Position numbers and translations under genes: made by a program
The notes under the pieces: generated by a model
The model's database searches: none
What the model was told of the DNA's origin: nothing
What the model saw: the letters and a program-made list of their open reading frames with translations, nothing else
Shown here: in pieces, positions 16,316 to 62,890 of the stretch
Layout of the letters: every line of letters begins with the position of its first letter
How positions within the stretch are numbered: the stretch's first letter is position 1
Source: Patescibacteria group bacterium
GTDB taxonomy: Bacteria > Patescibacteriota > Patescibacteriia > UBA9570 > JAHJKD01
Direction: 5' to 3'
Assembly: GCA_041660885.1 (NCBI GenBank)
Contig: JBAZVM010000002.1
Location: 14,025 to 78,024 of the forward strand
Length of the DNA: 64,000 nucleotides

Positions 16316-17044
16316 TCAACGCTGTGGCCAGTCTGCCTGCCCATCTTCGGCAGCTTTTTTCAAAGCCGCCGTGATGACTTGGAATGCTGAACCAACGTCG
16401 TCTACGATGGTGAACAGCTTCAAGTCTTCTTTTTCAATGACTCCCGCCTCAACTAAAACTCGGAAGTCGATTAGGCTTCCCCAAAAATCCCTACCGTAGA
16501 GGACAATGGGAAGCGGTTTTTCGATTCGTCGAGTTTGTCTGAGGCAAAGAAGTTCGAACAGCTCATCGAGCGTTCCGAACCCTCCGGGGAATACCACGAG
16601 AGCTTTCGCTTGATAGGCAAACCAGAACTTCCGCATAAAGAAATAGCGGAAGACGAAACTAAGACCCTTGGTAATGAACTGGTTATTGCCCTGTTCTCTT
16701 GGCAGGACGATTCCGAATCCGATCGACCTTCCACGGGTTACTTCGCTTGCCCCTCTATTGGCAGCTTCCATAATCCCCGGGCCGGCACCGGTCGCAACCA
16801 AGTATCGGCCTCCCTTTTCGCTTAGAGACCAATCCGTAAGAAGCATGGACAACAGTTTAGCAGCTTCGTAATACCCATTGCCCTGCCTGACGCGAGCGGA
16901 ACCGAAAAAGACAATCGTGTCTTTTACTCCGCTCAACCAAAGGAAAAGCAAAGGCCCGAGATACTCCAGAAGAATACGCAGCGGGCGCAGGAAACGCGGA
17001 CCATTCATAATCGAAACGGGGTAAAACTTGATGGGCTTGGACAT
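16316..17044 (-). CDS. LOG family protein (TIGR00730 Rossmann fold, nucleotide/cytokinin riboside 5'-monophosphate phosphoribohydrolase-like), GC-rich copy
   Basis: GAGPGIMEAANRGA and PGGFGTLDELFE motifs. SD-like GAGGA upstream. Composition is clearly more GC-rich than the flanks. Confidence 0.8.
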   Translation of the reverse strand: MSKPIKFYPVSIMNGPRFLRPLRILLEYLGPLLFLWLSGVKDTIVFFGSARVRQGNGYYEAAKLLSMLLTDWSLSEKGGRYLVATGAGPGIMEAANRGASEVTRGRSIGFGIVLPREQGNNQFITKGLSFVFRYFFMRKFWFAYQAKALVVFPGGFGTLDELFELLCLRQTRRIEKPLPIVLYGRDFWGSLIDFRVLVEAGVIEKEDLKLFTIVDDVGSAFQVITAALKKAAEDGQADWPQR

Positions 17045-26150: not shown

Positions 26151-28112
26151 TTATTTCGAAGTTAGGCCGAAATTTACATCATCCGTATCCTTTCCCGCTT
26201 TTACCCGAATTGATGCGGATGCAGTCTCATAATATGTCGATGCGACATAAGGCTTGTATTTACCCGCGGCAATACCGTCAAAAACATAATAGCCATTACT
26301 ATCGGAAGTAGCGCTCATGCCAGATCCTTTAATGCGTACTACGTAACCGGATAGCGGCAAGTTGGTGGAATTATCATAAATATACCCGGAAAAAGAACCG
26401 GCTTCACTTAACTTAATATTTACTCTCTTTTGCTTGCCCGCTTTAATCTTTTTCGCAACTATCTTTTCCGCGTATTGCGAAGAAGAAACGCGAATATTAT
26501 ATGTTCCCTTTTTTAATTCGCTGAAACGATAATAGCCGTCGTTATCCGTCGTCGCTGAATCATATCCCTGATTAGAAATTCTTTTACCCGAGTAGGCGTA
26601 AACATACGCTCCTTTCACGGGATTGCCATTATATGTTACGCGGCCGAATATTTCCGCGCCATCGGTTAAAGTGTAATCTTTTCCCGAAACATCATCTTTT
26701 AAATTAATTTTGCTTTTTTCATAAGCCACATAACCGGTTTTGGTAATCATGATCCGATAATAATTCGGGGTAATGCCGGTAATGGTAAAAGAGCCGTCTG
26801 AACTGGTGGTTCCACTATAATTTGAAGATGATGATCTTGGCTGGCTTAAATTATACAAATACACATACGCCCCATATATGGCCGCGCCATCCGCATCTAG
26901 CACGGTGCCGCTATACTCAGAAGCGGCCGGTATGCTGGCGTTTTGGTCGGCGGTTGTGGCGCCGAGAGAAACTTCAACATTATATAATACTTGAGTAACA
27001 TAATAAGTTTTGCTGAAAGTAATGGTATAAGAAGTAGAGGGGCGCAAACTGGTTATGGAATAAAAACCATCCGCTCCTGATGTGGTGGTGTAGGTATTAC
27101 CCAAACCGTCAGTAGCGCTTATGGTTACGGTTTCTAACGGCGTAGTTCCGTTCTTCTTATATGTGTATCCCGTAATTGTACCGCCTAATTGCAAAGTATA
27201 ATTTTTCGTAGCTGCGGTGCCGTCTTCTTCTATTGTTAATGCTTTCGCGTAGCTGATATAACCGGATTTGCTGGCGGTAACCGTATAAGTGCCCACAGCA
27301 GTGCCATTATAAGGATAAGTATCAAATATCTGAGCGGTATACTGGCCGCTGCTGTCTGTTGTTCCTGTATAAGTCGTGCCGCCGCTTTTTACCGCAGTAA
27401 CAGTCGCTCCGGATATGGGGGCGCCATTGGCATCCAGCACTTGGCCGGAAATTGTACTGCCATCGGTTAAAGTGATATCCAAAGAAGTATCTTGTTCGTC
27501 TACTATTGTCGTACCCGTAGTTATTTGCTTGGTAAAGTATCCCGTTTTACTGATAGTCATGTTATATGTGCCAGCGGCGGATACGGTGTAATCGGAGGAG
27601 GAAGGATACGGTGTAAAATAATATTGGCCGATAGCTGTAGAATAAGCACCGTAAGAACCATAAGAAGAGCCGGTGGAATTGTACCCGTAGATATAAGCAT
27701 TATAAATCGGGGTAACCCCATCTCCGGCATAAACCTTGCCCAATATACGGCCTTGCGCTATCAAAGAAAAATTTATACTAGCGGTTTCGCCATCAACTAC
27801 GGTAACAGTTTGTGTGCCTCTTCTAAAAACATAATTGGGAAAATCAGCGGAAGAAATGTAACTGTCATAAACAACGTAAGTGCCGGCATCCACAGTTATG
27901 CTGTATGCGCCCGCGGCATCTGTCCAGCCGCTGGATTCTACGCCGGTTGAAGCGTTCTCGGCCAGCATATACAAATTGGGAATTGCCGCGCCATCGCTGT
28001 GGCGGGTAACCGTACCGCTAATGGTAGCCGCGGCCCAAGTGGGCTGAGCCAGCATCAAGCCCAAACCAAAAATCCCTACAAATAGGGCTATGAATCCTCC
28101 TTTTTTGAACAT
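26151..28112 (-). CDS. secreted protein made of carboxypeptidase-regulatory-like (CarboxypepD_reg) beta-sandwich repeats
   Basis: Signal peptide, then at least 6 repeats of the pattern SG.V.D..G.PI.GA.V...D..G.Y...L..G.Y, for example SGQVLDANGAPISGATVTAV. Confidence 0.65.
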   Translation of the reverse strand: MFKKGGFIALFVGIFGLGLMLAQPTWAAATISGTVTRHSDGAAIPNLYMLAENASTGVESSGWTDAAGAYSITVDAGTYVVYDSYISSADFPNYVFRRGTQTVTVVDGETASINFSLIAQGRILGKVYAGDGVTPIYNAYIYGYNSTGSSYGSYGAYSTAIGQYYFTPYPSSSDYTVSAAGTYNMTISKTGYFTKQITTGTTIVDEQDTSLDITLTDGSTISGQVLDANGAPISGATVTAVKSGGTTYTGTTDSSGQYTAQIFDTYPYNGTAVGTYTVTASKSGYISYAKALTIEEDGTAATKNYTLQLGGTITGYTYKKNGTTPLETVTISATDGLGNTYTTTSGADGFYSITSLRPSTSYTITFSKTYYVTQVLYNVEVSLGATTADQNASIPAASEYSGTVLDADGAAIYGAYVYLYNLSQPRSSSSNYSGTTSSDGSFTITGITPNYYRIMITKTGYVAYEKSKINLKDDVSGKDYTLTDGAEIFGRVTYNGNPVKGAYVYAYSGKRISNQGYDSATTDNDGYYRFSELKKGTYNIRVSSSQYAEKIVAKKIKAGKQKRVNIKLSEAGSFSGYIYDNSTNLPLSGYVVRIKGSGMSATSDSNGYYVFDGIAAGKYKPYVASTYYETASASIRVKAGKDTDDVNFGLTSK

Positions 28113-28174
28113 AATGTTTATGTTTATTAATTAACTTGATTATATTATAATATAATTCTAAGATAATTAAAAAT

Positions 28175-31100
28175 ATGACTCAACGAGAAGCAATATTAGC
28201 CAGAAGACGCAATGCGCAAAGTGACGCCGCAAACGAAGCAACTGACGGGCGCAAGCTTACACCAGCTGACGACGCTACCGGCACCGAAGATGAAGCGCGC
28301 TTAAGGCAAGAACGAGAAAATACGCCAGAAAATGCAAAAACAGCCAAGGATTTATTAACCGCCACTATTGATGGTTTGGACCAGCTGACCATGGTTTTCG
28401 GTCGCCGAAAAAAAACTGCGGAATTATGCTGCGTCATCGAAAGCCGCATTCGCCGCTATCTGGAGCAAAATAACGAACCTAGCGTTTACGCCGAAGCTTT
28501 AACGCAAGAAGAAGAAAGGGATGAAGACACTAAGCTGGCTTTAGCTGAAACAGAAGCACATATAAGAGCGGAGCTTAATCCCCTTTTATTTCAGTTGCAA
28601 ATTTCTATTGGAAAAAATAATAACCTGCTTGAATTACTGACCACCGGCCGAGTGGGCGCGCAAAAAACTCGCACTCTGTTTCATGAACTTTCCGGTTTAA
28701 GTGTAGAAAAACCCGAAGCGGAAAAAGGCAAGCTGGTTCTAATCGATCCCCTAAATACGAACGAAGACAATATCACCTATTGGAGAGAACGCGTAACCAA
28801 TGAAAAATATATCGCCGGTTTTATTGGAAACCGTTCGGCTTACGCGGCAATCATGTTGAAGGATTTAGCTAAAGAAACCAAAGATGAATCTTTGAGAAAA
28901 GCTTGCACCATTATTGTTAAATGGATAGACCAAACCCAAGCGGGAATGGGCTCAAATTTGAGCTTAGAGGGATTAAGAGAATCGGTAAGCCGTTTAGATT
29001 TTTTGCATGCCCGGGACACTAAAGAACCTTTCCGTGTTATTAATGCTTTGCAGGAAATAAAAAGCGCAGAGCCCTTGCTCTATACCAGTTTACTGGGTAC
29101 GGGGCCCAGATACGAAAGCGCTGAAGCTGGTAGAAGCGATCTGTTTGGCAACGTGGTACAGATCGCCCTGCAAAGAACTCTAGAGATATTACCGCAATGG
29201 AGAAAAACTTTCGGGGAAGACGAGGATGGTTTAACATTATTAGACCAGCAATGTCATGAATTATTGAATATGGCTGATACGACAGCCATGCCACTATTAT
29301 ATCTTGATGAAGAAAGAATGGCTGTGCTCATGGAGCACACGTCTATGCGCACTGCGGAAGAAATTCAAAGAGACCCAAAAATGGCCGGAATGCTGATGCC
29401 GATGGTAATGGGTGCTCTTTTTCATATGGATAAAAGCGCCAAGTTAAAAGCCGTAATGGAAAAAATTTCTGCAAAAGAATATAACGACACCTTGGAAAAA
29501 ATAAACTCCGGTACAATGGAAGAATTTTTTGCTGTGGTTCGCAGCATACCAACCAGCCGTCTGGAAAGTGACCGCCTTTTAAAAAAAACTGTCGAAAGAA
29601 GAACGCTAGCGTTTTTAAGCGTTGCCGCGCCCGATGAGTTTATCCGCATCATTCAGGAGACTCCTGAGGACATGCTAGCTAGCGAGGAATTTAGTGCAGT
29701 AATAGAAAGAAGATTGGCGCCGGCTTTACCTGATCCATCATTGCCGCAAGGCCACCCTCGTCGAGGCACTTATCGAATTAACATTAGCAGTTGTCATGGT
29801 GATGTGGCCAGAAAAGCATACAATGAAAAAAACTTGCCTATCGGAGGCTACGAAGCGATAGATGGTATAAGAAAAATCCCGATTACAAGAAGAGACCGTA
29901 TTATTTATAGATTATTTGATCGAAGAGGAGGCTACGTTAGAGAACAGGAAAAAGAGGAAGAACGTAATTTAAGAATGGTTCTCTGGGAAACCGCGCCGGA
30001 TGAAACGCTGTTGTGCGAGGAATTTTACAGAAACTGGTGCGATTTAATTGAGAAAATAATGGAGAACATGAGCAATTACAAAATGGCGCACAAGTTTTAC
30101 GAACCGATGGCGCGCGTGGCCGCCGCGCATCCGCAAATACCTGCGGAAAAATGGGCGCAATGGGTAGAAGCCAATAAAAGATACTTCTTAGGCATGGATG
30201 ATGCCTTTAGCCGCCGGGTCTATTTTTATCGTCAAACAACCTTTGAAGATGTCATGGAAGGTCCTTCCGCATTACATAGAATAGGATCTAAATATATACA
30301 GGAGCAACATGAAGGTCGCTGGAAGGAAGAAAAAATGACCGAAGCCGATAGAATTAACAGAGAAGTCTTTCTCTTTAGAACCAGAGATGCCGATAGCAGT
30401 GGACAAAAAATACATGATTATGTAGGACATATAGTAAACATGCTACGAGAAGGAACAAATATTATTCCGATAATAGACAAATTAACTGATCAAGAAAAAA
30501 CCGACTATTTATTAATGTTGCTAACATCATTAGTAGAAATTGACATTTATAATCACGATGAAAACGAGAGGATAATATCTTTTAGCAATTTAGCAATGAA
30601 ATGCGATAATCTTTATTCAATAGTGCACTTGCTAAGATTATGCGATCGTTATTTATCTAATAATGCAAATTATCGTAAAATATGTACCAATATCGAAGCA
30701 AAAAAACACTTAACACCTACCGACTATCCGCGCTTTCAGAAAGACGAACACGGCCGCTGGCAGGTGGATGTGTGGGACGAAAAAAAGAAGGAATGGGTGA
30801 GGCAGGTGCAGTGGCGGGATTACGAGGTGGCGGAGACTAGAGAGTATGAAGGTGGCGAAGAATTAATAAGAATCGATGACCAAAAATATCTCACTAAAGA
30901 CTCGCAATTGGTAGGTCCTATTAGTGTTCGAGATAACGCTGGCAAAGTAATTTACCGAATTGAACCGGCACCAGGTGGATTCAAAGCTATCATTGTCCAT
31001 GAAAGTAAAATCATTACCGGCAGTTGGAACGGTCGAATGAATGTTTGGGATCCCACCGACGGAGCATGCGAAGCGACCATAGATGTCGAAGACGGGATAG

Positions 31101-31768
31101 ACCGCATTATCCCGGCAAAGGACGGAACTATCTTCTTGGCAACTAAAAAACGGGTAGGAGATACGAATGTCTTTAAAACAAAAATAATTAGAGTGGATCT
31201 TGAAACAAAAGAAATTGTAACTATTACTGAAGGTGACGATATTGGTGACTTTCAATTATTGGAAAATGACAGACTATTGCTTCTTAAAAGACACGGACTG
31301 GAAATATTTGATCCTGAAAAAAAGAATAAACCGCAGTCATTAGGAGAAGATGCTCTACAGAAAATGGATACAAGTTTACCATGGCCATATGGGGACCGTG
31401 ATATAATCTCTAATGACAAATATATCATTATTTCCAGACGTCACGATGGGTCATTCATAATCCTAGACAAACAAACTTGCCAACCAATTATAACCGAAAA
31501 TGAGTTGCCCAAATTTGGTGGAAAAAATCCTTTTATCACTTCCGATGGTTTATTAGCCTTATCATTCGATGATACTATCAATTTTTATGACATGGGTAGC
31601 TGGAGATGCGTCCATCATTTACGTGTTCCTGAAGGAAAAATCCATACAATGATGGAAACAGGCGACCATAAAATATTAGCTGATGTGGGAATAACTCATC
31701 CTCCCACGCCACCAAGTGGAAATTATACGGTATCATATATACTCCAGGTACTGGAAGAAAAAAAATAA
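28175..31768 (+). CDS. large hypothetical protein (1197 aa) with C-terminal WD40/beta-propeller-like region
   Basis: Uninterrupted ORF. The body is acidic and helical with no recognised motif. The C-terminus has WD-like strands (ITGSWNGRMNVWDP). Confidence 0.6.
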   Translation: MTQREAILARRRNAQSDAANEATDGRKLTPADDATGTEDEARLRQERENTPENAKTAKDLLTATIDGLDQLTMVFGRRKKTAELCCVIESRIRRYLEQNNEPSVYAEALTQEEERDEDTKLALAETEAHIRAELNPLLFQLQISIGKNNNLLELLTTGRVGAQKTRTLFHELSGLSVEKPEAEKGKLVLIDPLNTNEDNITYWRERVTNEKYIAGFIGNRSAYAAIMLKDLAKETKDESLRKACTIIVKWIDQTQAGMGSNLSLEGLRESVSRLDFLHARDTKEPFRVINALQEIKSAEPLLYTSLLGTGPRYESAEAGRSDLFGNVVQIALQRTLEILPQWRKTFGEDEDGLTLLDQQCHELLNMADTTAMPLLYLDEERMAVLMEHTSMRTAEEIQRDPKMAGMLMPMVMGALFHMDKSAKLKAVMEKISAKEYNDTLEKINSGTMEEFFAVVRSIPTSRLESDRLLKKTVERRTLAFLSVAAPDEFIRIIQETPEDMLASEEFSAVIERRLAPALPDPSLPQGHPRRGTYRINISSCHGDVARKAYNEKNLPIGGYEAIDGIRKIPITRRDRIIYRLFDRRGGYVREQEKEEERNLRMVLWETAPDETLLCEEFYRNWCDLIEKIMENMSNYKMAHKFYEPMARVAAAHPQIPAEKWAQWVEANKRYFLGMDDAFSRRVYFYRQTTFEDVMEGPSALHRIGSKYIQEQHEGRWKEEKMTEADRINREVFLFRTRDADSSGQKIHDYVGHIVNMLREGTNIIPIIDKLTDQEKTDYLLMLLTSLVEIDIYNHDENERIISFSNLAMKCDNLYSIVHLLRLCDRYLSNNANYRKICTNIEAKKHLTPTDYPRFQKDEHGRWQVDVWDEKKKEWVRQVQWRDYEVAETREYEGGEELIRIDDQKYLTKDSQLVGPISVRDNAGKVIYRIEPAPGGFKAIIVHESKIITGSWNGRMNVWDPTDGACEATIDVEDGIDRIIPAKDGTIFLATKKRVGDTNVFKTKIIRVDLETKEIVTITEGDDIGDFQLLENDRLLLLKRHGLEIFDPEKKNKPQSLGEDALQKMDTSLPWPYGDRDIISNDKYIIISRRHDGSFIILDKQTCQPIITENELPKFGGKNPFITSDGLLALSFDDTINFYDMGSWRCVHHLRVPEGKIHTMMETGDHKILADVGITHPPTPPSGNYTVSYILQVLEEKK

Positions 31769-31808
31769 ATATATGCTATAATTCAATAACAACAATTAAT
31801 CTATAAAT

Positions 31809-32525
31809 ATGCCCAAAACCATTATCGCCGCGAATTGGAAAATGAATAAAAACAAAAGAGAAGTCACCCAGTTTTTAACTTCCTTAAAAACCGTGAAATG
31901 GAACAAAGAAAAAGAAGTAGTGCTTTGCGCGCCATATACTTTGTTGCCTTTATTGGACGAGCTGAATAAGAAAGCGCCTTGGAAAATCGGAGCGGAAAAT
32001 ATGCACGACCAAGAATCCGGGGCTTTTACTGGCGAAGTCTCCCCGCTGATGCTGAAAGATACAGGATGCGAATATGTAATTATCGGCCATTCGGAAAGAA
32101 GACAGTTTTTTGGTGAAACCAATGAATCGGTAAACAAAAAATTAAAATCGGCTTTAGCTCATAATCTCACTCCGATATTTTGCGTGGGCGAAACTTTAGA
32201 GCAAAGAGAAAAAAACGAAACTGAACAAGTAGTAACACAACAAATTCAAGAAGGTTTAAAAGATATAAAAACTTTAAACCAAATCGTTATCGCGTATGAG
32301 CCAGTCTGGGCCATTGGCACGGGCAAAGTAGCTACTCCCGAGCAAGCGCAAGAAGTGCACGCGTTAATCCGCAAACTTACCTCGCCGGAAATAAGCATCC
32401 TCTACGGCGGCAGTGTGAAGCCGGAAAACATTAAAGACTTAATGGCACAAAAAGATATAAATGGCGCCCTCGTGGGCGGTGCCAGCTTGGAAGCGGAGAG
32501 CTTTGCGAAAATCGTGAATTATTAA
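31809..32525 (+). CDS. tpiA: triosephosphate isomerase
   Basis: AANWKMN, IIGHSERR and AYEPVWAIGTG motifs. Confidence 0.9.
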   Translation: MPKTIIAANWKMNKNKREVTQFLTSLKTVKWNKEKEVVLCAPYTLLPLLDELNKKAPWKIGAENMHDQESGAFTGEVSPLMLKDTGCEYVIIGHSERRQFFGETNESVNKKLKSALAHNLTPIFCVGETLEQREKNETEQVVTQQIQEGLKDIKTLNQIVIAYEPVWAIGTGKVATPEQAQEVHALIRKLTSPEISILYGGSVKPENIKDLMAQKDINGALVGGASLEAESFAKIVNY

Positions 32526-32529
32526 AATT

Positions 32530-35500
32530 ATGCCGGAACCAACCAGAAAAACAGAAGCCAGAAGAGGGGGGCTTGATCGTTTCGTGTCCCGAAGCCGATT
32601 AATGAACTACGTATTGGCTGGCCTAATTTCTTTTGCCCAAGGAGACCATGCTAATCATAATCCGGAAACAACCTCGATCGCGGACACGGAGACAGAACCT
32701 CATGAATTCAAACCCCTGGTGCCCCTGGACCAGATACCGCAAACGAAAACTGTTGAAACGGATTTTTTTGAGGAGCCGTCTTCAGATATTACCCCAGAGA
32801 ATATAAGTTCACTGCAAAAAGAATATGAGTTAAGCTCGGATCAAAAAAGATTCGCTCGCTTAGCCCGTATCGCCGGAGCGCCGAGTGCCGTCAACAGCCC
32901 CCAAGATGTGGAGCGTTTCCTGCGTTCGGCTGAAAAATTTAAACCAGCCGATGAGGAAGAGTTACGGGACTGGGATGAAGATTTTCTTAGTCAGGTGCTA
33001 GAAGCTCATTTTGAATCCGCTCCCCGGGAAATGAAAATAGTCATTAGCGACCAAGAAGAGCTGAAGATGTATATGTATTGGGACAAAGCAGTGCAATCAC
33101 TGGGGCCTGAATACGAATTTCGCGGCCTGCCCCGCGTGGTCAACGAAAAAACACTGCCAAAAATTCATAAAATGCTAAGCGCAATCTGGGACGGGAATGA
33201 GACAGCAGAGGTGTGGACAGAATATTGCAGACAACTCGATTTCCAAGGAGAGTTTGAACCGCAGATCATTACACCGGAAACCGGGGTAAAGATAATTACC
33301 AAAGCTTACAGCAAATTAGATTATTCTTTAATACGGTTTTCGGGGTTGGCAGAGACTTATTTATCCAAATGTGAAATGAGAGACTACCCTGCTTTGGATC
33401 TAACTAATCCCGAACCTTTTTTGGAGGACTTGGAACATTTTAATTACGCACCATATGACGAAGAAGAGTATCCTTTTACCGGCGATGGCGTATCGTATTT
33501 TGCTTCCCCGGCAACGGCATATTACCACATAATGTCGGATAAAATGCAGGATATCCCGTTTCCAGAAGGCTATACGAGATACGAAGGTCTGATGACTCTA
33601 CACTATTTAATGAATGCCGATTACGGCCCGCCGCAACGACTCACTGGTGAAACGCTGGTCCGATTAGCGGATTTAACTGAAAAAACGCAATCTTATGGGG
33701 AAATTTCAGATTTTCAACAGGAACTTATGCTGGCAAAAATAATGTCGAAAATAATGGAAAGAGAAGGCTTCCAGACGATCACGCCGGATAATTTTTCCGA
33801 TTACATCAAAAGATTGACCGCGGCTTACGAATACGCCAAGACTTTGGCGCCGCGAAAAAATCAAGATGAATACGAAGAATTTATTATTTCAGGTGCACAC
33901 TTTTCCGGAGAATTAAAAATCGCATTGATCTCGGATCCGGAAAACACTTCCCTGGTTACCGTAAAGGATCTGCAAAAAATTCCTCAAGGCCGGCGCCTGG
34001 CCGCCGTTATTTTCCAGCAAGCCGAACTGGCTGTGGTTCTGCCCGAAGGAGAGGTGATAATCGAGAATGATAAAGAATTACGAGCATTATTCCGAGATTT
34101 GCTATTTCTAAAAAACGCTAATCCCGATTTTGATCCATCGACTCTCTTAGAGAAAATCCATTACGCGGGGAAGGAAATGAAAGTAACTTCCTGGGAGCAA
34201 TTTTCCGGGGTATTATCCACAGCCTATGTTTTTCCAGAGTATCCGTCGGCATGGCCGACCGGTATTGATGAATATCAAAAATTTAAAGCTGCCAACGTGG
34301 ACTTAAGCGACTTCCCTATTTTCTCCGCCGACTACCGGTCGCTCGATGAATTATATGAACAAACTACCTATCAACGGATGAGATTAATAAGCATACTGCA
34401 AACAAGGGTGCTCAGCAAAAAATTATTGGAAAGAGCGGATTTTTATAACGTGCCTTTCGCGGTAACCACGGAAACCATGCCCGAAATTGCCAAGCAGTAT
34501 TCGGAAATGCAAATATTTTTTGGAACTGAAGTCGCCGATCTCTATTTAAAGCAATTGGAGTTTCCTGGATTCCCGAGCGATATTACGGAAGCTAACTTGG
34601 TGGAAGTGGCCGCGGCGCTGCGCCTTTTGCGAAATAACGGCGGTGAAGATATGGTTCAAGAATACGCTTCCCGATTAACCCCGGGATTAACGGTGGCTTA
34701 CGCCACGGAAATCACGACTGATGATTTGGAAATGGAATTCGCCAAAAAGACTCTGGCGGACCTCGGATTAATTCGTGTTGAATCTTCGGCAAAACCCGTT
34801 GTTATCAATATTACATACGAGCCGCCGCGCTCTTTGGAAGATCTGTTTCTGACTTTAAACAGTATGGAAATGCTTAAATCCCTGCATAAGGATGAAGGTA
34901 AGGCAACGGAAGAAAAATATTTAAAAAGCGTAGACTGGGAAAGCATTATTGGAGATGCCGTCAATGTTCAAGATATTTCCAAAATAGAAGAATTGCGCCA
35001 GCGCATCAACTCAAGCATCGGCTCCACTATGGGAGACCGATTTTTGATCGCCGTGGGCAGCTCGGCCATAGAAAAAAATCCGGTGACTTGGGAAAACATG
35101 GAAGAAAAATTAACTTTTTGCGAAGCGTATTTACAAGTCAGGGAAGGGGCTAAAATTGATGAAGATGTTGTGGGATTATACCACATGATCGGCATGTTCC
35201 AGGCCAGCCAAATTTTAAAATTTTGGCAAAGCCAGGGCGTGGATTTTGAAGATAAAAAGGTGGCGCCATATGTGACTAGACTGCAAACAGCGGGAGCCGA
35301 TATTCCGGTGGATGACCCTATTTTAAGCAAAATTTGGCGTTCCGGCAGCCAGCCGAGTTATTTATTCAATAAAGGTTTAAGAAAAATCACGGACAGCGAT
35401 GAAGTGACCGCTCCCGAAACCCAAGGAACAAGATTGACCTTTAAACCCAACCCAGAGCGCATGAAACCGGGATACGAATATCAATTAGTTTATAACGGCG

Positions 35501-36207
35501 AAGAATTGGTGGCGCGCGTATTAATCGGCGATCCAAAAAGCGGCGCCAAACTGGATTACGCGGTGCGCGTGGGCGGCGGCCTAACCACAGAAGAAGTGTA
35601 CTCAATGTATCCTGAAGGAGAAATCGCGGCTCAAGCCGTGGGCAGCTACACCACCGGTCCGCAAAAACCGGCGGATTTTGCCATCGACGGCGGCCATGTA
35701 GAAAATTACCTTATTTCTACAAGAGAGGGTTTAGTAATTATTCAAAAAGATGGCACAGTGAGAATCAAGCATCGCGGCCAATTGCAAACCACGGATATCG
35801 CGCCACGAGCAGCAGTTAATCCGTTACACATTACTGAAAATTTATCAGACTTTACCACTTTTATTGAACTGGCAGAACGAGAAGGAGTTGATGTCATGAA
35901 CAGCCATTTGCTTTTATACCAAGGCGGTTTGGAAGTGGGAACAAACTCCGACCCGGCAACCGATAAAAGAAGAGCGTTGGTTACGTATCATGACGGCCGC
36001 TTCGCGCTGGTTGATTTCGAGCAGCCACTGTCGCTTTACGAGGAAGCTTATCTTTTGCAACAGGCCGGTTTTGAGAGCGCGGTCAATTTGGATACGGGGT
36101 ATTACGACTACTCCAGCATTTACCCGGCCGCCGGCGCACCAATTTCTTTGGGGCTGGAAGACAAAGACGGAATCAATAATAAATTTATATTTTTAAGCGA
36201 GCAATAG
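32530..36207 (+). CDS. large hypothetical protein (1225 aa) with C-terminal phosphodiester-glycosidase-like (DUF2233-like) domain
   Basis: Starts 4 nt after the tpiA stop. Weak N-terminal hydrophobic segment. The last ~200 aa resemble DUF2233 (…RRALVTYHDGRFALV…AVNLDTG). Confidence 0.6.
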   Translation: MPEPTRKTEARRGGLDRFVSRSRLMNYVLAGLISFAQGDHANHNPETTSIADTETEPHEFKPLVPLDQIPQTKTVETDFFEEPSSDITPENISSLQKEYELSSDQKRFARLARIAGAPSAVNSPQDVERFLRSAEKFKPADEEELRDWDEDFLSQVLEAHFESAPREMKIVISDQEELKMYMYWDKAVQSLGPEYEFRGLPRVVNEKTLPKIHKMLSAIWDGNETAEVWTEYCRQLDFQGEFEPQIITPETGVKIITKAYSKLDYSLIRFSGLAETYLSKCEMRDYPALDLTNPEPFLEDLEHFNYAPYDEEEYPFTGDGVSYFASPATAYYHIMSDKMQDIPFPEGYTRYEGLMTLHYLMNADYGPPQRLTGETLVRLADLTEKTQSYGEISDFQQELMLAKIMSKIMEREGFQTITPDNFSDYIKRLTAAYEYAKTLAPRKNQDEYEEFIISGAHFSGELKIALISDPENTSLVTVKDLQKIPQGRRLAAVIFQQAELAVVLPEGEVIIENDKELRALFRDLLFLKNANPDFDPSTLLEKIHYAGKEMKVTSWEQFSGVLSTAYVFPEYPSAWPTGIDEYQKFKAANVDLSDFPIFSADYRSLDELYEQTTYQRMRLISILQTRVLSKKLLERADFYNVPFAVTTETMPEIAKQYSEMQIFFGTEVADLYLKQLEFPGFPSDITEANLVEVAAALRLLRNNGGEDMVQEYASRLTPGLTVAYATEITTDDLEMEFAKKTLADLGLIRVESSAKPVVINITYEPPRSLEDLFLTLNSMEMLKSLHKDEGKATEEKYLKSVDWESIIGDAVNVQDISKIEELRQRINSSIGSTMGDRFLIAVGSSAIEKNPVTWENMEEKLTFCEAYLQVREGAKIDEDVVGLYHMIGMFQASQILKFWQSQGVDFEDKKVAPYVTRLQTAGADIPVDDPILSKIWRSGSQPSYLFNKGLRKITDSDEVTAPETQGTRLTFKPNPERMKPGYEYQLVYNGEELVARVLIGDPKSGAKLDYAVRVGGGLTTEEVYSMYPEGEIAAQAVGSYTTGPQKPADFAIDGGHVENYLISTREGLVIIQKDGTVRIKHRGQLQTTDIAPRAAVNPLHITENLSDFTTFIELAEREGVDVMNSHLLLYQGGLEVGTNSDPATDKRRALVTYHDGRFALVDFEQPLSLYEEAYLLQQAGFESAVNLDTGYYDYSSIYPAAGAPISLGLEDKDGINNKFIFLSEQ

Positions 36208-36288
36208 AATCACGGAAGCACGGAGAAATGCAATTCATTAATTGCATTTTTTTCGTGAACTCTGTTTTTTCCGTGTCTCCGTGATTCT
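36206..36288 (+). terminator. nested hairpin terminator with outer CACGGA-type inverted repeat
   Basis: The inner stem aaatgcaatt/aattgcattt is followed by a T-run. The outer arms are agaatcacggaagcacggag and tccgtgtctccgtgattct. Confidence 0.6.
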
Positions 36289-36300
36289 GTCTCTCTTTAA

Positions 36301-36328
36301 TTGACAAACATTGTTTATATATTAAGAT
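36301..36328 (+). promoter_or_regulatory. sigma70-like promoter of the GC-rich 78-aa gene
   Basis: TTGACA (36301-36306), a 16-nt spacer, then TAAGAT (36323-36328). An AGGAGG SD follows at 36350. Confidence 0.45.
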
Positions 36329-36357
36329 ACCGGCACTTCCCTAGCACATAGGAGGAA

Positions 36358-36594
36358 GTGATGGACGACAAGTCCAAGGTGTTATTCGATGTGTTGATCG
36401 GAAAACCCCACGCGCGCGGCACCCTGCTGCGCGTCATCTCCGAGTACCTTGCCATCTCCGATCAGGAGAACGGCAAGGACAGCGCAGAGCAGCTCTGCGC
36501 CTACATCGAGGCGAATCCCGATCGCGCAATCAACGCGTTCGGTGCGTGGGTCGAAGAAATGGAGATGGACATCGAGCCTGCCCCTCAGGACTAG
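36358..36594 (+). CDS. small acidic hypothetical protein (78 aa), GC-rich foreign-looking gene
   Basis: Has its own promoter and a canonical SD (ATAGGAGGAAGTGATG). G/C-ending codons contrast with the neighbours. Confidence 0.5.
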   Translation: MMDDKSKVLFDVLIGKPHARGTLLRVISEYLAISDQENGKDSAEQLCAYIEANPDRAINAFGAWVEEMEMDIEPAPQD

Positions 36595-44954: not shown

Positions 44955-45067
44955 TCTGCTTCGCTCCTTACTACGTTCGGAGCTTCGCAGGATCAAGTCT
45001 ATTTATTTAGGCCTAGCTCCTGCGAAGCCCTGATCCAAAGGATCATGGGCGAAGCAGAGGGCATATA
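44945..45067 (+). repeat. tRNA-5'-associated structured element, copy 2 (105 nt, 44954-45058), flanked by a 9-nt direct repeat
   Basis: gggcatata occurs at 44945-44953 and again at 45059-45067, where it forms tRNA-Ile nt 1-9. Perfect 9-bp terminal inverted pairing ctgcttcgc/gcgaagcag. Homologous to 10611-10712. Confidence 0.7.
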
Positions 45068-45132
45068 GCTCAGTCGGTTAGAGCACAGCCCTTATAAGGC
45101 TGGGGTCCCTGGTTCGAGTCCAGGTATGCCCA
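45059..45132 (+). tRNA. tRNA-Ile(TAT)
   Basis: Acceptor gggcata/tatgccc, D arm gctc..gagc, anticodon stem cagcc/ggctg with loop cTTATAa, T arm cctgg-ttcgagt-ccagg. No encoded CCA. Confidence 0.85.
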
Positions 45133-45241
45133 CTGAAATATAACTTAAAATAGAATATTAACCACTCTTTTATTTCTAGTTAGATGGAACACTTCTTTTT
45201 GATTTACTTGTAGTAGATTCCCTGCCAGATACTTTAAAACA

Positions 45242-45333: not shown

Positions 45334-45352
45334 AAAAAAAAGAACGATGTAT

Positions 45353-45898
45353 CTATTTCCAGCGGTAAAGAACCCGCTGGTCTTGGGGAGAAATGCAGAG
45401 GCGGATCTCCTTGGATCCGTCCTCGTTCTCACCCTGCATTATCACGGCCCAATCTCCGTAGAGACAGACCGCCGAACTAACCTCCTGTGCGGCCTGGAAG
45501 ACGATCGCCGCGATCTCTTCATGGGTTACCGGCGGCTGTGCCGCGAAAACCGTGAACTTGTCGTCCCTCATCCGCTTTTCAGCGGACGGCCGCCTTTCGA
45601 ATCCCGGCGCCGCGATCATGGCCATCACGCGGCCGGGCCAAGCCTGCGCCGCGATGAGCGACCCGACGATGAGAGCCTCGGGGTTCTCCTTTTCGAGGCG
45701 TTCCAGCGCCTCGGTCGAGGCGACGTCCGGTACGATTTTCGTTCGGACAAGCTCGACACCGGTCGGGTGCATTCCCGCCGGCTCATCCTCGAACCGGGCG
45801 TTCAGCACCGTCCCGGAAGGAGGGACTTCGTAGACTTCTCCCTCGACGGAGAGGAAACGAATCAGGTGGGGGGTAACATTAACCACATTCTTCCTCAT
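45353..45898 (-). CDS. hypothetical protein (N-terminal N-x-T-P-H family seen in phage/mobile contexts), GC-rich
   Basis: An AAGGAGG SD lies 8 nt upstream of the ATG at 45898 (MRKNVVNVTPH...). The ORF track starts 9 codons earlier, at 45925. GC-rich codon usage. Confidence 0.6.
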   Translation of the reverse strand: MRKNVVNVTPHLIRFLSVEGEVYEVPPSGTVLNARFEDEPAGMHPTGVELVRTKIVPDVASTEALERLEKENPEALIVGSLIAAQAWPGRVMAMIAAPGFERRPSAEKRMRDDKFTVFAAQPPVTHEEIAAIVFQAAQEVSSAVCLYGDWAVIMQGENEDGSKEIRLCISPQDQRVLYRWK

Positions 45899-46200
45899 GA
45901 CTACCGACCTCCTTGCTCTGATCAAAATGATTTTTATGTTTTGTTAAGCTTAAATGGTCTCTTTATCTTTTTAACTTAACGACGAAATATACACTAAAAA
46001 TGGCTTTATGTCAATAGTAAATGATTAAATATAGGCTAAAAATAGCAAAAAAATATTTATTTTGGCTAAAATAAACCATTTTTACTGGTACAAAATCTGA
46101 AGGCGGCTTTTCTACTATATCCATGCTACGCGCGACCTCCTATTCTAATTCTAAAATCTTTGCTAAAATAGGTTCCAGTAGCGTCGTATAAAGATACATT

Positions 46201-46274
46201 TGGGTGTATAGCTCAGTTGGTTAGAGCGTCACATTGACATTGTGAAGGTCTCTGGTTCGAGTCCAGATACACCC
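46201..46274 (+). tRNA. tRNA-Val(GAC)
   Basis: Acceptor gggtgta/tacaccc, anticodon stem tcaca/tgtga with loop tTGACAt, T arm tctgg-ttcgagt-ccaga. Confidence 0.85.
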
Positions 46275-46296
46275 ACCTATTATTAAACATACAAAA

Positions 46297-61198: not shown

Positions 61199-62890
61199 AC
61201 TTGCAAATCCAAATGCCCCAAGCTGGTTTGAGAACCGCTGATATATTCTTCTCTGGTCGGGCAGGCTTCTATAATTTTATGAGTCGCTTCTTCATATCCG
61301 GTAACAGTCCCGGTGCCGGCATCTCCTTCGGCGCTATAATCCGTTCCCGCTGTCCAAGTTCTATAATGAGGATTAACCAAATTGGCGCCGTCCTCATGAT
61401 AAGCCAACAAACCCGTGCCATCAGCGGAATATTTTTTAAAAGCATGCGAGTAAGGCATAATAGCTATGGCGGCCGTGGCTAAAGTACCCGGAGAAGCATC
61501 AGTTTCTATGGCGCCCATAGTACCGGTTTGCGCAAGCCAAGTGGCATTATCCTCGCCTTGCCAATACATAGCCTCGGGCCGGACATCTAAAGTCAGTTCA
61601 TTCTGAGTTAAAACCATTAAACCGCGGCCGCTATAATCTTGAGTAATCTCCACGCCAGATGTATTTCCCACCATATAAGCTGATGTCAAACAAGGACCGC
61701 CGTTATCTTCGGCCAGATCCAAGCTGGTTACTGTTTCCGCATATCCCGCGTCTCCTTCGGTTATGGCGCATTCCGTGCCGCCATCGTCTATGGCTTGAAA
61801 AGCATTTGCGGAAATATCATAAACCATATAGGACAAAGCTGTTTCGCTGGCCACGGCCGCGCGTATGCCATCGCGCCAGGCAAATAATGCCCGATCGCTA
61901 GAACCGCCATATTCCCACTCTACATCCACGGCTTGTGCATAACCATTATTATTAATATCACCATCATCAGTCGGTGTAGTAACTGTGGTCCAATCCGAAC
62001 CATTCCACATATCTACGCCAACATCGGCAGTACTTGTGCTAACCACATCCGCATGTATCATGGCAATATAATTGTTATTCGGGCTGCCTGCCGCTTGCAA
62101 CCAAACCACGGCGCCGGCGGGATTTTTAGAGCCTGAGCCATTAGCCCATTCGCCAGCAATGTAAGTAGAATAATCCGTGGTCGTACCCGTGCCCCAAACA
62201 GCCATACCGTCTCCTGAAGTTCCTTCCCACGCGCAATCTATGGATTGTTTTGTGGAAGTGGGCACGCCGGCAGCGTCGTGCAACACAATATCATCCCAAG
62301 ATGACCCGTTCCAAACCGCCCCGTATATACCATATAAAGCATAATTTTTCCAAATTAACATGATGTTATCACTGCCATAATCAGGAACCAATTCTACCCA
62401 TATAGAGACATCATCAGTACCCGATTCAGCGACGCCGCTGAAATCTATAGTACCCTCAGCCGACCAAGTGCTGCCATTCCAAGTACGATACTTCAGCGTC
62501 TTATTAGCTGTTGCGCTGTCTTCATAAACAACTAAAGCGTCTCCCGTGGAATCCTCATAAGCAACATCAAAATTACGATAGTTGGCATAAGTAATATTTA
62601 AACCGGTGCCATTAAGCGAACCATTCGTGGCTGCTCCACTACCAATGGACCAGCTGCCGCCAGTAAACATTTGAGCTTGGATATTGCCGGTTTCATATTG
62701 TTCCACGCGCATATACTCATCGCGAGTAGGCGCGGCTTCCACTTGAACAAACCTTAAATCCGATCCGTTGCCGCCATCGTATGCTTGCATATTACTTTCC
62801 GAACTGACATCGCTGGGCGTCCAAGTTCTATAATGAGGGTTGGGCAAAGTATTGCTCATGTCTTCATCATAAACCAGCATGCCATTGCCA
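59960..62890 (-). repeat. tandem duplication of a ~1.47-kb (489-codon) module inside the giant gene
   Basis: ccaagttctataatgagg occurs at 61354 and 62821 (offset 1467). ccattattattaatatc occurs at 60474 and 61943 (offset 1469). The protein modules align (PHYRTWT...FDVAYEDS.GDALVVYED...). Confidence 0.75.

What the first reader, a model, noticed from the sequence alone, without database searches (positions are those of the whole stretch)
28175..36207. Two ~1200-aa orphan proteins bracketing tpiA
ORFs of 1197 and 1225 aa flank the 238-aa triosephosphate isomerase gene on the same strand, with gaps of 40 nt and 4 nt. tpiA is thus probably co-transcribed with both.

Neither large protein has a classical signal peptide, and no motif is recognisable over most of their length. 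The first ends in WD40-like repeats. The second ends in a DUF2233-like domain.

A secreted CarboxypepD_reg-repeat protein (26151..28112) is transcribed divergently from a 62-nt intergenic region. For a streamlined genome, spending about 7.3 kb on two unknown proteins wired to a glycolytic gene is striking. They may be effectors or host-interaction factors.
Basis: partly seen in the sequence, partly recalled or inferred. Interest (0 to 1): 0.55.

Follow-up and report, generated by a model that had tools for sequence, protein, structure and literature searches.

The report
Variable gene slot around tpiA
The two big "orphan" genes flanking the glycolysis gene tpiA in this ultra-small (Patescibacteria) bacterium are real but not orphans: one belongs to a fast-evolving family that sits next to tpiA in close relatives, and the other is a probably exported protein with a divergent sugar-phosphate-cleaving type domain dropped into a spot that holds different cargo in every relative.

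Summary
ORFs of 1197 aa (A), 238 aa (canonical TPI) and 1225 aa (B) lie on the + strand with gaps of 40 and 4 nt, and a secreted CarboxypepD_reg protein diverges 62 nt upstream.

The "orphan" label fails for both. A is 26-30% identical, collinearly, to large ORFs beside tpiA in four related genomes; seven distinct members are known. It is all-helical (about 850 aa) plus a WD40-like C-terminus, with no export signal.

B has six full-length homologues (28-40% identity) and 193 relatives of its C-terminal module. A confident AlphaFold model puts a DUF2233/NAGPA fold at the C-terminus. The family's invariant DGGGS loop reads DTGYY there. B homologues are never next to tpiA.

In nine relatives the backbone SMC-rnc-nusB-L32 | tpiA | gyrA is conserved, and the cargo beside tpiA varies (A-family, Fic, beta-helix protein, B, small unknowns). 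The full sandwich occurs only here.

Best reading: a variable slot at a housekeeping boundary. Co-transcription is plausible, since there is no internal terminator and a strong hairpin follows B. That link looks positional, not metabolic. Interest is modest. The best lead is B's module in large proteins of MAGs labelled CPR, DPANN and Omnitrophota.

The parts
26151..28112 (-). Secreted CarboxypepD_reg-repeat surface protein (C, 653 aa), divergent from A. It is a partly conserved neighbour of tpiA.
   Evidence: Pfam CarboxypepD_reg 248.8 bits in 7 stretches. Classical signal peptide MFKKGGFIALFVGIFGLGLMLAQPTWA (KD 2.75). Homologues 48-49% identical sit divergently next to tpiA in L094 and L098. 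A terminator hairpin follows its 3' end at 26133-26100.
28113..28174 (.). 62-nt AT-rich divergent intergenic region with promoter-like boxes for both C and A.
   Evidence: Sequence. A promoter-like site on the - strand spans 28183-28155. On the + strand, TTGATT-17-TAAGAT and TATAAT boxes were read by eye. These are consensus matches only.
28175..30724 (+). Protein A, residues 1-850: an all-alpha region with no Pfam, PDB, PADLOC or PHROGs match. It is the conserved core of a fast-evolving, clade-restricted family.
   Evidence: Secondary structure from the model (low confidence). Collinear alignment A1 with L088, L086 and L084 ORFs shows invariant motifs NAxxxxK, RSDL, LWxT, HxxIxxxxW. BLASTP E 2e-31, 2e-17 and 2e-9. 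More distant members are L095/L096 and L097. No family hits.
30725..31768 (+). Protein A, residues 851-1197: a beta-rich, WD40/beta-propeller-like C-terminal domain.
   Evidence: About 25 strands in the model, pLDDT 50-70. Foldseek hits to DCAF1, BamB and Fbw7 propellers at E about 1e-7 but TMt about 0.3. Sub-threshold DUF5074 and WD40 hits in A and in the L086 and L088 homologues. The domain is absent from the 909-aa and 987-aa distant members.
31774..31782 (+). Extended -10-like box TGCTATAAT inside the 40-nt gap between A and tpiA; a possible own promoter for tpiA.
   Evidence: TGnTAnAAT boxes also lie upstream of tpiA in L090, L091, L092 and L094. This is a consensus match only.
31809..32525 (+). 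tpiA, canonical triosephosphate isomerase (238 aa), the conserved resident of the slot.
   Evidence: Pfam TIM 6.5e-95. TIGR00419 182.5 bits against a cut-off of 130.6. NWKMN, GHSERR and YEPVWAIGTG motifs are visible. Relatives are 60-79% identical on the same backbone.
32599..32643 (+). Protein B, residues 24-38 (LMNYVLAGLISFAQG): a conserved hydrophobic segment after a basic N-terminus. It is a putative weak Sec signal or anchor.
   Evidence: Present at the same place in all 8 aligned family members. KD 1.4-2.2 over 11 residues, against 2.75 for C's classical signal. A function in export is inferred, not shown.
32530..34821 (+). Protein B, residues 1-764: a family-specific alpha/beta region with internally duplicated modules. 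No significant structural neighbour was found in the PDB.
   Evidence: Model pLDDT mostly 75-90. Only weak solenoid-type hits. hhalign of residues 191-271 against 632-709 gives probability 96%, E 3e-9. Collinear with P0123-P0128.
34822..36207 (+). Protein B, residues 765-1225: a widespread C-terminal module. It combines a helical domain (about 769-954) with a divergent DUF2233/NAGPA-fold domain (about 969-1225) carrying NLDTGYYD (1186-1193).
   Evidence: Most of the longer matches among the 193 HMMER hits begin at trimmed-query residues 740-810, that is B 765-835. Foldseek 3ohg 1.5e-8 and NAGPA 6pky/6pku about 1e-7. Phage phosphodiester-glycosidase domains. Motif table and alignment to 5h3k NLDGG.
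36204..36290 (+). Long hairpin with a nested stem plus U-tract directly after B's stop codon; the likely terminator of the A-tpiA-B unit.
   Evidence: MFE -39.4 kcal/mol, z -7.67, with 0 of 200 shuffles folding as well. Sequence.

Best explanation
The region is a variable gene slot at the junction of two conserved housekeeping blocks in a clade of Patescibacteria. The blocks are S16-SMC-rnc-nusB-L32 on the minus strand, and gyrA-x-MBL followed by S1-FtsH. tpiA is the fixed resident of the junction. Lineage-specific cargo genes accumulate on either side of it.

In this genome the cargo is A upstream and B downstream. Intergenic DNA is minimal, so the three genes most likely form one transcription unit. 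That unit would start in the 62-nt divergent region and end at the hairpin after B. tpiA probably retains its own extended -10 promoter, and B, 4 nt after tpiA, would ride on tpiA's transcription. The link to glycolysis is positional rather than metabolic.

A is a member of a rapidly diverging, clade-restricted family. It is most likely a cytoplasmic helical scaffold with a propeller-type protein-binding domain. Its adjacency to tpiA was probably inherited from an insertion in the common ancestor of the closest relatives.

B is most likely an exported or surface-tethered enzyme. It has a weak N-terminal signal or anchor, a long repeat-containing stalk, and a C-terminal helical plus NAGPA-fold catalytic module. 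That module retains the conserved Asp but has a remodelled sugar-phosphate loop (DTGYY in place of DGGGS). It plausibly cleaves a glycosyl-phosphate-type linkage in a cell-envelope polymer, either its own or a host's.

Shown: the ORFs, the homologies, the synteny pattern, B's fold, the motif change and the hairpin. Inferred: co-transcription, export of B, enzymatic activity and substrate, and the scaffold role of A.
For: - **Synteny.** Nine related loci share the backbone but differ beside tpiA. L084 and L086: A-like, Fic, tpiA, gyrA. L088: L32, A-like, tpiA, RNase J. L090: L32, tpiA, a 1298-aa NosD/beta-helix protein, gyrA. L091 and L093: L32, tpiA, small unknown genes. L092: L32, a 177-aa unknown gene on the minus strand, then tpiA; the contig ends about 430 nt after tpiA. 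L094 and L098: C homologue, then tpiA; in L098 an A-like ORF lies downstream of tpiA.
- **A homology and rate.** BLASTP and collinear alignment A1. A-family identity is 26-30% where TPI identity is 61-79%.
- **B homology and contexts.** HMMER hits. Homologues sit in unrelated places: a tandem pair in a Fic/RhuM/helicase island, after uvrD near pilus genes, and among pyrimidine genes.
- **B fold.** Model pLDDT 81.7; DUF2233/NAGPA hits; phage phosphodiester-glycosidase domains, some in proteins labelled endolysin, CHAP or autolysin.
- **Active-site loop.** NLDTG aligns with NLDGG of 5h3k. The motif is conserved across about 70 relatives. DGGGS and D286 are described as hallmarks in PMC13474241.
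- **N-terminus of B.** A conserved hydrophobic segment; only 3 Cys in 1225 residues.
- **Transcription signals.** No internal + strand terminator, a hairpin after B, and TGCTATAAT before tpiA.
- **Not recent transfer.** Codon usage and GC of A and B are typical for the window.
- **Other giant unknown ORFs** occur in the same window.
Against: - The A-family stays next to tpiA in the window and four other genomes despite a change in gene order (upstream in the window, L084, L086 and L088; downstream in L098). This could mean selection for linkage rather than inheritance alone.
- A distant member (L095) lies 4 kb from gapA, another lower-glycolysis gene.
- B's hydrophobic segment is short and only moderately hydrophobic, so export is uncertain.
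- The DGGGS loop, reported as strictly invariant in active phosphodiester glycosidases, is not kept. The domain may have a different activity or only bind a ligand.
- B's Pfam NAGPA score is below threshold (17.7 against 25 bits).
- A's structure model is poor (pLDDT 40.8), so the scaffold-plus-propeller picture is weak.
- No RNA data were available to test co-transcription.
- Only nine related loci were seen, several on short contigs.
Confidence: 0.55

Rival explanations
1. There is a functional A-tpiA module. The A-family protein works with triosephosphate isomerase or lower glycolysis, for example as a scaffold or regulator that localises or controls TPI. On this view the adjacency is kept by selection, and B is an unrelated later insertion.
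For: A-family genes are adjacent to tpiA, or one Fic gene away, in the window and four of the six other distinct members. The pairing survives a switch of order: tpiA is followed by A-like in L098 and preceded by it elsewhere. A distant member lies 4 kb from gapA. The gaps are tight: 40 nt here and 16 nt in L088.
Against: Closely related genomes lack A at tpiA. L094 has the C homologue directly before tpiA. L090, L091 and L093 have L32 directly before tpiA, and L092 has only a 177-aa unknown gene between them. A Fic gene can sit between A-like and tpiA. L095/L096 and L097 members show no tpiA in the visible flanks. A diverges about three times faster than TPI, which is unusual for a partner of a conserved enzyme. 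All adjacent cases are within one subclade, so shared ancestry suffices.
Confidence: 0.15
2. A and B form a contact-dependent host-interaction or effector pair expressed from a constitutive housekeeping promoter. A would be delivered into host cells by a non-classical route, and B would open the host envelope.
For: Both evolve fast and are restricted to ultra-small, presumably host-dependent lineages. B has an envelope-type enzyme fold, also found in phage proteins labelled as lysis proteins. B's C-terminal module occurs in large proteins of MAGs labelled Micrarchaeota, Peregrinibacteria and Omnitrophota. A secreted surface protein is the divergent neighbour. Fic genes, a class that includes many effectors and toxins, recur next to both families.
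Against: A and B never co-occur in any related locus. A has no export signal or known secretion-system partner nearby. There are no hits in defence or phage libraries. The host is unknown. Nothing tested here distinguishes host-directed from self-directed envelope remodelling.
Confidence: 0.2
3. B is a cytoplasmic, non-catalytic protein, and the NAGPA-like domain is a degenerate ligand-binding remnant. On this view the N-terminal hydrophobic patch is structural, not a signal.
For: The DGGGS loop is not conserved. The Pfam score is below threshold. The hydrophobic segment is weak (KD 1.4-2.2).
Against: The replacement motif N[LCM]DTG[YM]YD is itself nearly invariant across about 70 relatives down to 15% overall identity. 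The same holds for RR, K87, G96 and D234 (domain numbering of alignment A4, which starts at B residue 960). That is the pattern of a working site, not decay. The hydrophobic segment is positionally conserved in an otherwise variable N-terminus.
Confidence: 0.1

Closest known systems
DUF2233 / NAGPA phosphodiester glycosidase family (Pfam PF09992; Bacteroides ovatus BACOVA_00430, PDB 3ohg; vertebrate uncovering enzyme, PDB 6pku/6pky)
   Same: B residues about 969-1225 adopt this fold (Foldseek E 1.5e-8 to 1e-6, probability 1.00, TMt 0.5-0.62). The Asp of the signature loop and an upstream Arg are retained and align with NLDGG and R..R of 5h3k. Like many bacterial and phage members, it is one module of a larger, probably extracytoplasmic protein.
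   Different: The loop DGGGS, reported as strictly invariant and as the GlcNAc-1-phosphate recognition element (PMC13474241), reads DTGYY in B and DTG[YM]YD in nearly all relatives. The Pfam score is below gathering threshold. The domain is always preceded by a roughly 200-aa helical domain and sits at the end of 1000-4600-aa proteins. Substrate and activity are unknown.
Giant or large proteins of unknown function in ultra-small lineages (CPR/Patescibacteria, Omnitrophota, DPANN), for example those discussed in bioRxiv 10.1101/2023.11.21.568195. That paper is cited from its title and abstract only.
   Same: These are long, fast-evolving, lineage-restricted ORFs without Pfam coverage, often proposed to act on other cells' envelopes. 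The same window has further 2310-aa and 956-aa examples. Relatives of B's module are annotated in Omnitrophota, Peregrinibacteria and Micrarchaeota MAGs.
   Different: A and B are about 1200 aa, not giants in the sense used for Omnitrophota. No cell-wall-degrading domain other than the NAGPA-like one was identified. A has no export signal.
Helical-repeat plus WD40 beta-propeller scaffold proteins (generic architecture, for example the DCAF1/VprBP-type ARM plus WD40 layout seen among the Foldseek hits)
   Same: A has about 850 aa of helices followed by about 300 aa of four-stranded-blade-like beta structure. WD40 hits are weak.
   Different: No sequence homology to any such protein. A has no NTPase or other enzymatic motif. 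The model is of low confidence. Distant family members lack the propeller. This is an architectural resemblance only.
Genomic 'variable regions' or integration hot spots flanked by conserved core genes in bacterial genomes (general concept, from background knowledge)
   Same: Conserved housekeeping flanks enclose different, often large and surface- or conflict-related cargo (Fic, beta-helix, CarboxypepD_reg, A, B) in each relative.
   Different: No integrase, tRNA attachment site, repeats or atypical composition mark A or B. Cargo appears to turn over on evolutionary rather than recent timescales. A housekeeping gene (tpiA) sits inside the slot.

Membership tests
Triosephosphate isomerase (tpiA) | Match to the family model above the curated cut-off | tested here: met
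   Pfam TIM 317.7 bits (cut-off 20.1); TIGR00419 182.5 bits (cut-off 130.6).
Triosephosphate isomerase (tpiA) | Catalytic Lys, His and Glu motifs (NWK, GHSERR, YEPVWAIGTG) | tested here: met
   Read directly in the translation. The identity of the catalytic residues comes from background knowledge of TPI.
NAGPA/DUF2233 phosphodiester glycosidase (B C-terminus) | Family fold | tested here: met
   Foldseek 3ohg E 1.5e-8, TMt 0.62; 6pku and 6pky about 1e-7; probability 1.00. The model has pLDDT above 90 in this region.
NAGPA/DUF2233 phosphodiester glycosidase (B C-terminus) | Pfam PF09992 score at or above the gathering threshold | tested here: not met
   17.7 bits against a cut-off of 25, E 0.0043. 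The PDB profile search gave only E 0.35 to NAGPA itself.
NAGPA/DUF2233 phosphodiester glycosidase (B C-terminus) | Invariant DGGGS sugar-phosphate loop | tested here: not met
   B has D1188-T-G-Y-Y. About 70 relatives have DTG[YM]YD. The register is fixed by alignment to NLDGG of 5h3k. The motif definition comes from PMC13474241.
NAGPA/DUF2233 phosphodiester glycosidase (B C-terminus) | Conserved Asp of the loop (human D286) | tested here: met
   D1188 is invariant in alignment A4 (D229 in domain numbering) and nearly invariant in A2.
NAGPA/DUF2233 phosphodiester glycosidase (B C-terminus) | Hydrolysis of a GlcNAc-1-phosphodiester | not testable with these tools
   Needs a biochemical assay.
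WD40-type beta-propeller (A C-terminus) | Repeat or family model above threshold | tested here: not met
   DUF5074 22.1 bits against 27.2. WD40 18.8 bits against 27 in the L086 homologue. Prp19 and THOC3 propeller hits are far below cut-off.
WD40-type beta-propeller (A C-terminus) | Propeller fold | tested here: inconclusive
   692 PDB hits at E <= 0.001; all of the top 50 listed are beta-propeller proteins (WD40 or BamB type). TMt is only about 0.3, and the model has pLDDT 50-70 in this region and 40.8 overall.
Operon (A-tpiA-B co-transcription) | Same strand, short gaps, no internal terminator, terminator at the end | tested here: met
   Gaps of 40 and 4 nt. No + strand terminator-like site between the genes. 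Hairpin of -39.4 kcal/mol after B.
Operon (A-tpiA-B co-transcription) | A single transcript observed | not testable with these tools
   No transcriptome data are available. An internal promoter-like TGCTATAAT before tpiA means more than one transcript is possible.
Sec-type signal peptide (B N-terminus) | Basic n-region, hydrophobic h-region, small residues at -3 and -1 | tested here: inconclusive
   The pattern is present and conserved in 8 of 8 family members. The h-region is only 11-13 residues with KD 1.4-2.2, against 2.75 for the classical signal of the neighbouring protein C. No dedicated predictor was available.
Orphan (taxonomically unique) gene | No detectable homologue in any other genome | tested here: not met
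   A has homologues in L084, L086, L088, L098, L095/L096 and L097. B has 193 HMMER hits, 20 of them at E <= 1e-30.

The most novel reading that the evidence does not exclude
B's C-terminal module is a helical domain plus an NAGPA-fold domain with the remodelled DTG[YM]YD loop. It could define a new enzyme subfamily that ultra-small, host-dependent lineages of both domains carry at the end of very large surface proteins. Those lineages are CPR bacteria, Omnitrophota and DPANN archaea. The enzyme would cut glycosyl-phosphate-linked polymers in the envelope of the cells they attach to. In parallel, the A-family could be a TPI-linked factor specific to one Patescibacteria clade.
Probability: 0.2. 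Interest if true: 0.6.

Novelty: new variant of a known kind. Interest (0 to 1): 0.33.

Why it matters
The main value is corrective. Two apparent orphans wired to glycolysis turn out to be members of under-detected, fast-evolving families sitting in a variable slot. The case also shows that word-indexed searches miss such relatives, while exhaustive HMMER and synteny recover them.

If B's module is a real envelope-active enzyme shared by large proteins of CPR, DPANN and Omnitrophota, it would give a concrete and assayable candidate for how ultra-small episymbionts engage host surfaces.

The persistent pairing of the A-family with tpiA is a small, testable hint of a clade-specific partner of a core metabolic enzyme. 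Neither lead is established here.

Tried and rejected
- **Word-indexed protein search of A and B:** self hits only. This was a sensitivity artefact, later overturned.
- **A and B as paralogues:** rejected. BLASTP best E 3.4; profile-profile probability 0.1%.
- **Species-representative genome scan with TPI:** it returned no Patescibacteria among the 80 loci kept (one is labelled Woesearchaeota, several only 'bacterium'), at 48-59% identity.
- **Sequence searches of solved structures:** with A, B and profiles A1, A2 and A4, nothing significant except 5h3k at E 0.0015.
- **NCBIfam, PADLOC and PHROGs:** no hits for A or B. A JetD hit in L096 (E 1.3e-4, 19 bits) was treated as chance.
- **Structure prediction of A with its family alignment:** The single-sequence model was poor, so its fold search is only indicative.
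- **IMG/VR scans with A1, A3 and A4:** no viral relatives.
- **Recent horizontal transfer of A or B:** rejected on composition and codon usage.
- **Rfam on the B-gyrA spacer and the GC-rich stretch at 45.3-46.0 kb:** only chance-level hits.
- **Double-glycine leader or Tat motif in B's N-terminus:** considered by eye and rejected, because neither is conserved across the family.

Full report
**1. Observation**

The ORF map matches the finding exactly. A is 28175..31768 (+), 1197 aa. tpiA is 31809..32525 (+), 238 aa. B is 32530..36207 (+), 1225 aa. A 653-aa gene at 26151..28112 (-) is divergent from A. The gaps are 62, 40 and 4 nt.

tpiA is a textbook triosephosphate isomerase (Pfam TIM 317.7 bits; TIGR00419 above cut-off; catalytic motifs present). 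The divergent gene has seven CarboxypepD_reg repeats and a classical signal peptide.

The surroundings are housekeeping genes. SMC, rnc, nusB and rpmF (L32) lie upstream on the minus strand. gyrA, an MBL-fold protein, S1 and FtsH lie downstream.

Exact-match look-ups place the sequence in an NCBI MAG named "Patescibacteria group bacterium" (tags WC752_01105 and WC752_01115, contig 153.8 kb). It also occurs in JGI, ENA and Logan assemblies.

**2. Neither protein is an orphan**

The word-indexed search of 5.8 billion clusters returned only self hits. That is probably what a standard annotation would see. Two other routes overturned it.

*Route 1: relatives of the organism.* I took the closest TPI sequences (60-79% identity) and read their contigs. 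Large unannotated ORFs next to tpiA in three of them match A. The matches are 28.5% over 340 aa (E 2e-31) in L086, 22% over 686 aa (E 2e-17) in L088, and E 2e-9 in L084. The four proteins align collinearly over their whole length, including the beta-rich C-terminus. Small invariant motifs include RSDL, LWxT and HxxIxxxxW.

A degenerate-pattern scan of metagenome contigs with that alignment added L098, L095/L096 and L097.

*Route 2: exhaustive HMMER.* A search with B residues 26-1225 against 1.84 billion representatives gave 193 hits at E <= 1e-3. Six were full length (P0123-P0128, 32-40% identity by phmmer). They align end to end.

A and B are unrelated to each other.

**3. Synteny: a variable slot with tpiA as resident**

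All relatives share the backbone S16-SMC-rnc-nusB-L32 (-), then tpiA (+), and, where visible, gyrA-x-MBL (-) and S1-FtsH (+). What lies beside tpiA differs in each.

| Locus | Arrangement around tpiA |
|---|---|
| Window | L32, C, then A, tpiA, B, then gyrA |
| L084, L086 | A-like, Fic, tpiA, gyrA |
| L088 | L32, A-like, tpiA, RNase J |
| L090 | L32, tpiA, 1298-aa NosD/beta-helix protein, gyrA |
| L091, L093 | L32, tpiA, unknown genes of 359-440 aa |
| L092 | L32, a 177-aa unknown gene (-), tpiA; contig ends about 430 nt after tpiA |
| L094 | C homologue (49% identical), tpiA, contig end |
| L098 | C homologue, tpiA, then an A-like ORF downstream |

L098 comes from the same metagenome as the window but from another organism.

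The complete "sandwich" exists only in the window. A-family/tpiA adjacency recurs in five genomes, counting the window, with variable order and with Fic able to intervene.

B-family genes are elsewhere. One case is a tandem pair in an island with two Fic, two RhuM, an SLFN-type helicase, NYN and MazG-like genes (L099). One overlaps the end of uvrD near type IV pilus genes (L100). One lies among pyrimidine genes (L101).

A-family proteins are 26-30% identical where the adjacent TPIs are 61-79% identical, so A evolves much faster than TPI. A and B have the GC content and codon usage of the rest of the window, so neither is a recent import.

**4. What A is**

A has no hydrophobic N-terminus. It has no match in Pfam, NCBIfam, PADLOC, PHROGs or the PDB.

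The model is poor (pLDDT 40.8). It predicts helices for residues 1-850 and about 25 strands for 850-1150. Foldseek on that model returns WD40 and BamB propellers at E about 1e-7 with low TM-scores. Sub-threshold WD40 and DUF5074 hits recur in A and its homologues.

The two most distant members (909 and 987 aa) lack the propeller. The helical region is therefore the family core.

My working interpretation is a cytoplasmic helical scaffold with a propeller-type binding domain. This is an inference with low confidence.

**5. What B is**

The 75-sequence alignment gave a good model (pLDDT 81.7, pTM 0.62).

- **C-terminal fold.** Residues about 969-1225 match the DUF2233 structure 3ohg (E 1.5e-8, TMt 0.62) and vertebrate NAGPA catalytic domains (about 1e-7). 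They also match phage "phosphodiester glycosidase" domains, several of them in proteins labelled endolysin, CHAP or autolysin.
- **Active-site loop.** A 2026 structural paper describes a strictly invariant DGGGS loop, with catalytic D286, as the GlcNAc-1-phosphate recognition element of this family (PMC13474241). B reads NLDTGYYD at that place. The register is fixed by a profile alignment to NLDGG of 5h3k. About 70 relatives carry N[LCM]DTG[YM]YD, together with invariant RR, K and G positions. The fold and the Asp are kept, and the glycine loop is replaced by a different, equally conserved motif. This looks like a distinct subfamily, not a decayed domain.
- **Helical domain.** A roughly 200-aa helical domain always precedes the NAGPA-like domain in the longer relatives. 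The combined module ends proteins of 1000-4600 aa.
- **Taxonomic names.** The few relatives with names are from Micrarchaeota/Micrarchaeia, Peregrinibacteria and Omnitrophota MAGs. Short relatives are annotated as phosphodiester glycosidase family proteins.
- **N-terminal region.** Residues about 60-760 have confident alpha/beta structure but no significant PDB neighbour. They contain at least one internal duplication: residues 191-271 against 632-709, probability 96%.
- **N-terminus.** All eight family members start with a basic stretch, then an 11-13 residue moderately hydrophobic segment, then a small-residue site. In B this reads RSRLMNYVLAGLISFAQG|DH. It resembles a weak signal peptide with a long n-region. 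B has only 3 cysteines. I infer that B is exported or surface-tethered, but this is not shown.

**6. Transcription**

No terminator-like site lies between the three genes on the + strand. A 87-nt hairpin with a nested stem plus U-tract follows B's stop codon directly (36204-36290; -39.4 kcal/mol; z -7.7). This fits one A-tpiA-B unit.

The 40-nt gap before tpiA contains a perfect extended -10 (TGCTATAAT, 31774-31782). Similar boxes precede tpiA in relatives where it stands alone. tpiA therefore probably keeps its own promoter, and B, 4 nt downstream, would be expressed from it. All promoter statements rest on consensus matches only.

**7. Interpretation and comparison with known families**

The simplest account is a variable slot at a conserved housekeeping junction. 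tpiA is the resident gene and cargo turns over on both sides. In a compact genome this creates operon-like spacing without implying a shared function.

The rival that A is functionally tied to TPI or lower glycolysis keeps some weight. The pairing survives an order change, and a distant member lies 4 kb from gapA. However, absence of A in close relatives, an intervening Fic gene and very fast divergence argue against it.

B's C-terminus is best filed as a new variant of the NAGPA/DUF2233 fold family, not as a confirmed phosphodiester glycosidase. A is an uncharacterised clade-specific family.

The same window has two further giant ORFs with no Pfam match. Spending coding capacity on large unknown proteins is therefore normal for this genome.

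**8. Verdict**

"Orphan" is refuted. Co-transcription is plausible. The glycolysis link is probably positional.

Interest is modest (0.33). The most promising lead is the DTGxYD NAGPA-like module shared by large proteins of MAGs labelled as ultra-small symbiotic lineages.

Noticed in passing
window 36301-36594 (+): A 77-aa ORF (36361-36594) has GC 0.59 and GC3 0.81 in a genome of about 0.42 GC. It is preceded by the best sigma-70-like match of the region (TTGACA-16-TAAGAT, 36301-36328) and a GGAGG ribosome-binding site. It sits between B's terminator hairpin and gyrA's terminator. It has no Pfam or Rfam match and looks foreign.
   Followed up: partly
window 45347-45979: A GC-rich stretch (0.567) has open frames on both strands (210 and 190 aa). 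It has no Pfam hit and no significant Rfam hit. It lies between tRNA-Ile(UAU) at 45059-45133 and tRNA-Val at 46202-46277. Whether it is coding or a structured RNA is unresolved.
   Followed up: partly
window 45059-45133 (+): A tRNA-Ile gene carries a TAT anticodon, which would read AUA directly, without a lysidine-modified CAU tRNA. This is uncommon in bacteria (from background knowledge).
   Followed up: no
window 54266-61198 (-) and 61066-63936 (-): Two more very large ORFs (2310 and 956 aa, both with TTG as the first possible start) overlap by 133 nt in different frames. Neither has any Pfam match or similarity to A or B. Large unknown proteins make up roughly a quarter of this window.
   Followed up: partly
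L084 3531-4592, L086 3430-4638, L099 1742-2614 and 3952-4986: Fic/DOC-domain genes recur next to both families. One sits between the A-like gene and tpiA in two relatives. Two lie in the island that holds the tandem B paralogues, together with RhuM, an SLFN-type helicase, NYN and MazG-like genes.
   Followed up: no
L095 722-1741 (+); L097 3152-4972 (+): Distant A-family members have other neighbours. A GAPDH gene lies about 4 kb upstream in L095. A Ser/Thr protein kinase gene lies immediately upstream in L097. L097's A-like protein has a different, unassigned C-terminal domain in place of the propeller.
   Followed up: partly
L004-L083 (species-representative genomes): The best TPI matches among 185,579 species representatives are only 48-59% identical. 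They come mostly from other phyla: one MAG labelled Woesearchaeota, plus Omnitrophota, Thermodesulfobacteriota and others. The window's own clade seems absent from that collection. Whether TPI was exchanged between ultra-small lineages was not examined.
   Followed up: no
proteins P0135, P0274, P0154, P0142 (relatives of B residues about 765-1225): The helical plus NAGPA-like module with the DTGxYD motif occurs in 1100-2550-aa proteins of MAGs labelled Micrarchaeota/Micrarchaeia (DPANN archaea), Peregrinibacteria (CPR) and Omnitrophota. This hints at a cross-domain distribution among host-dependent nano-organisms. The binning of those contigs was not checked.
   Followed up: partly
window 16316-17044 (-): A 242-aa ORF with GC 0.509 and GC3 0.551 is compositionally atypical for the window.
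   Followed up: no
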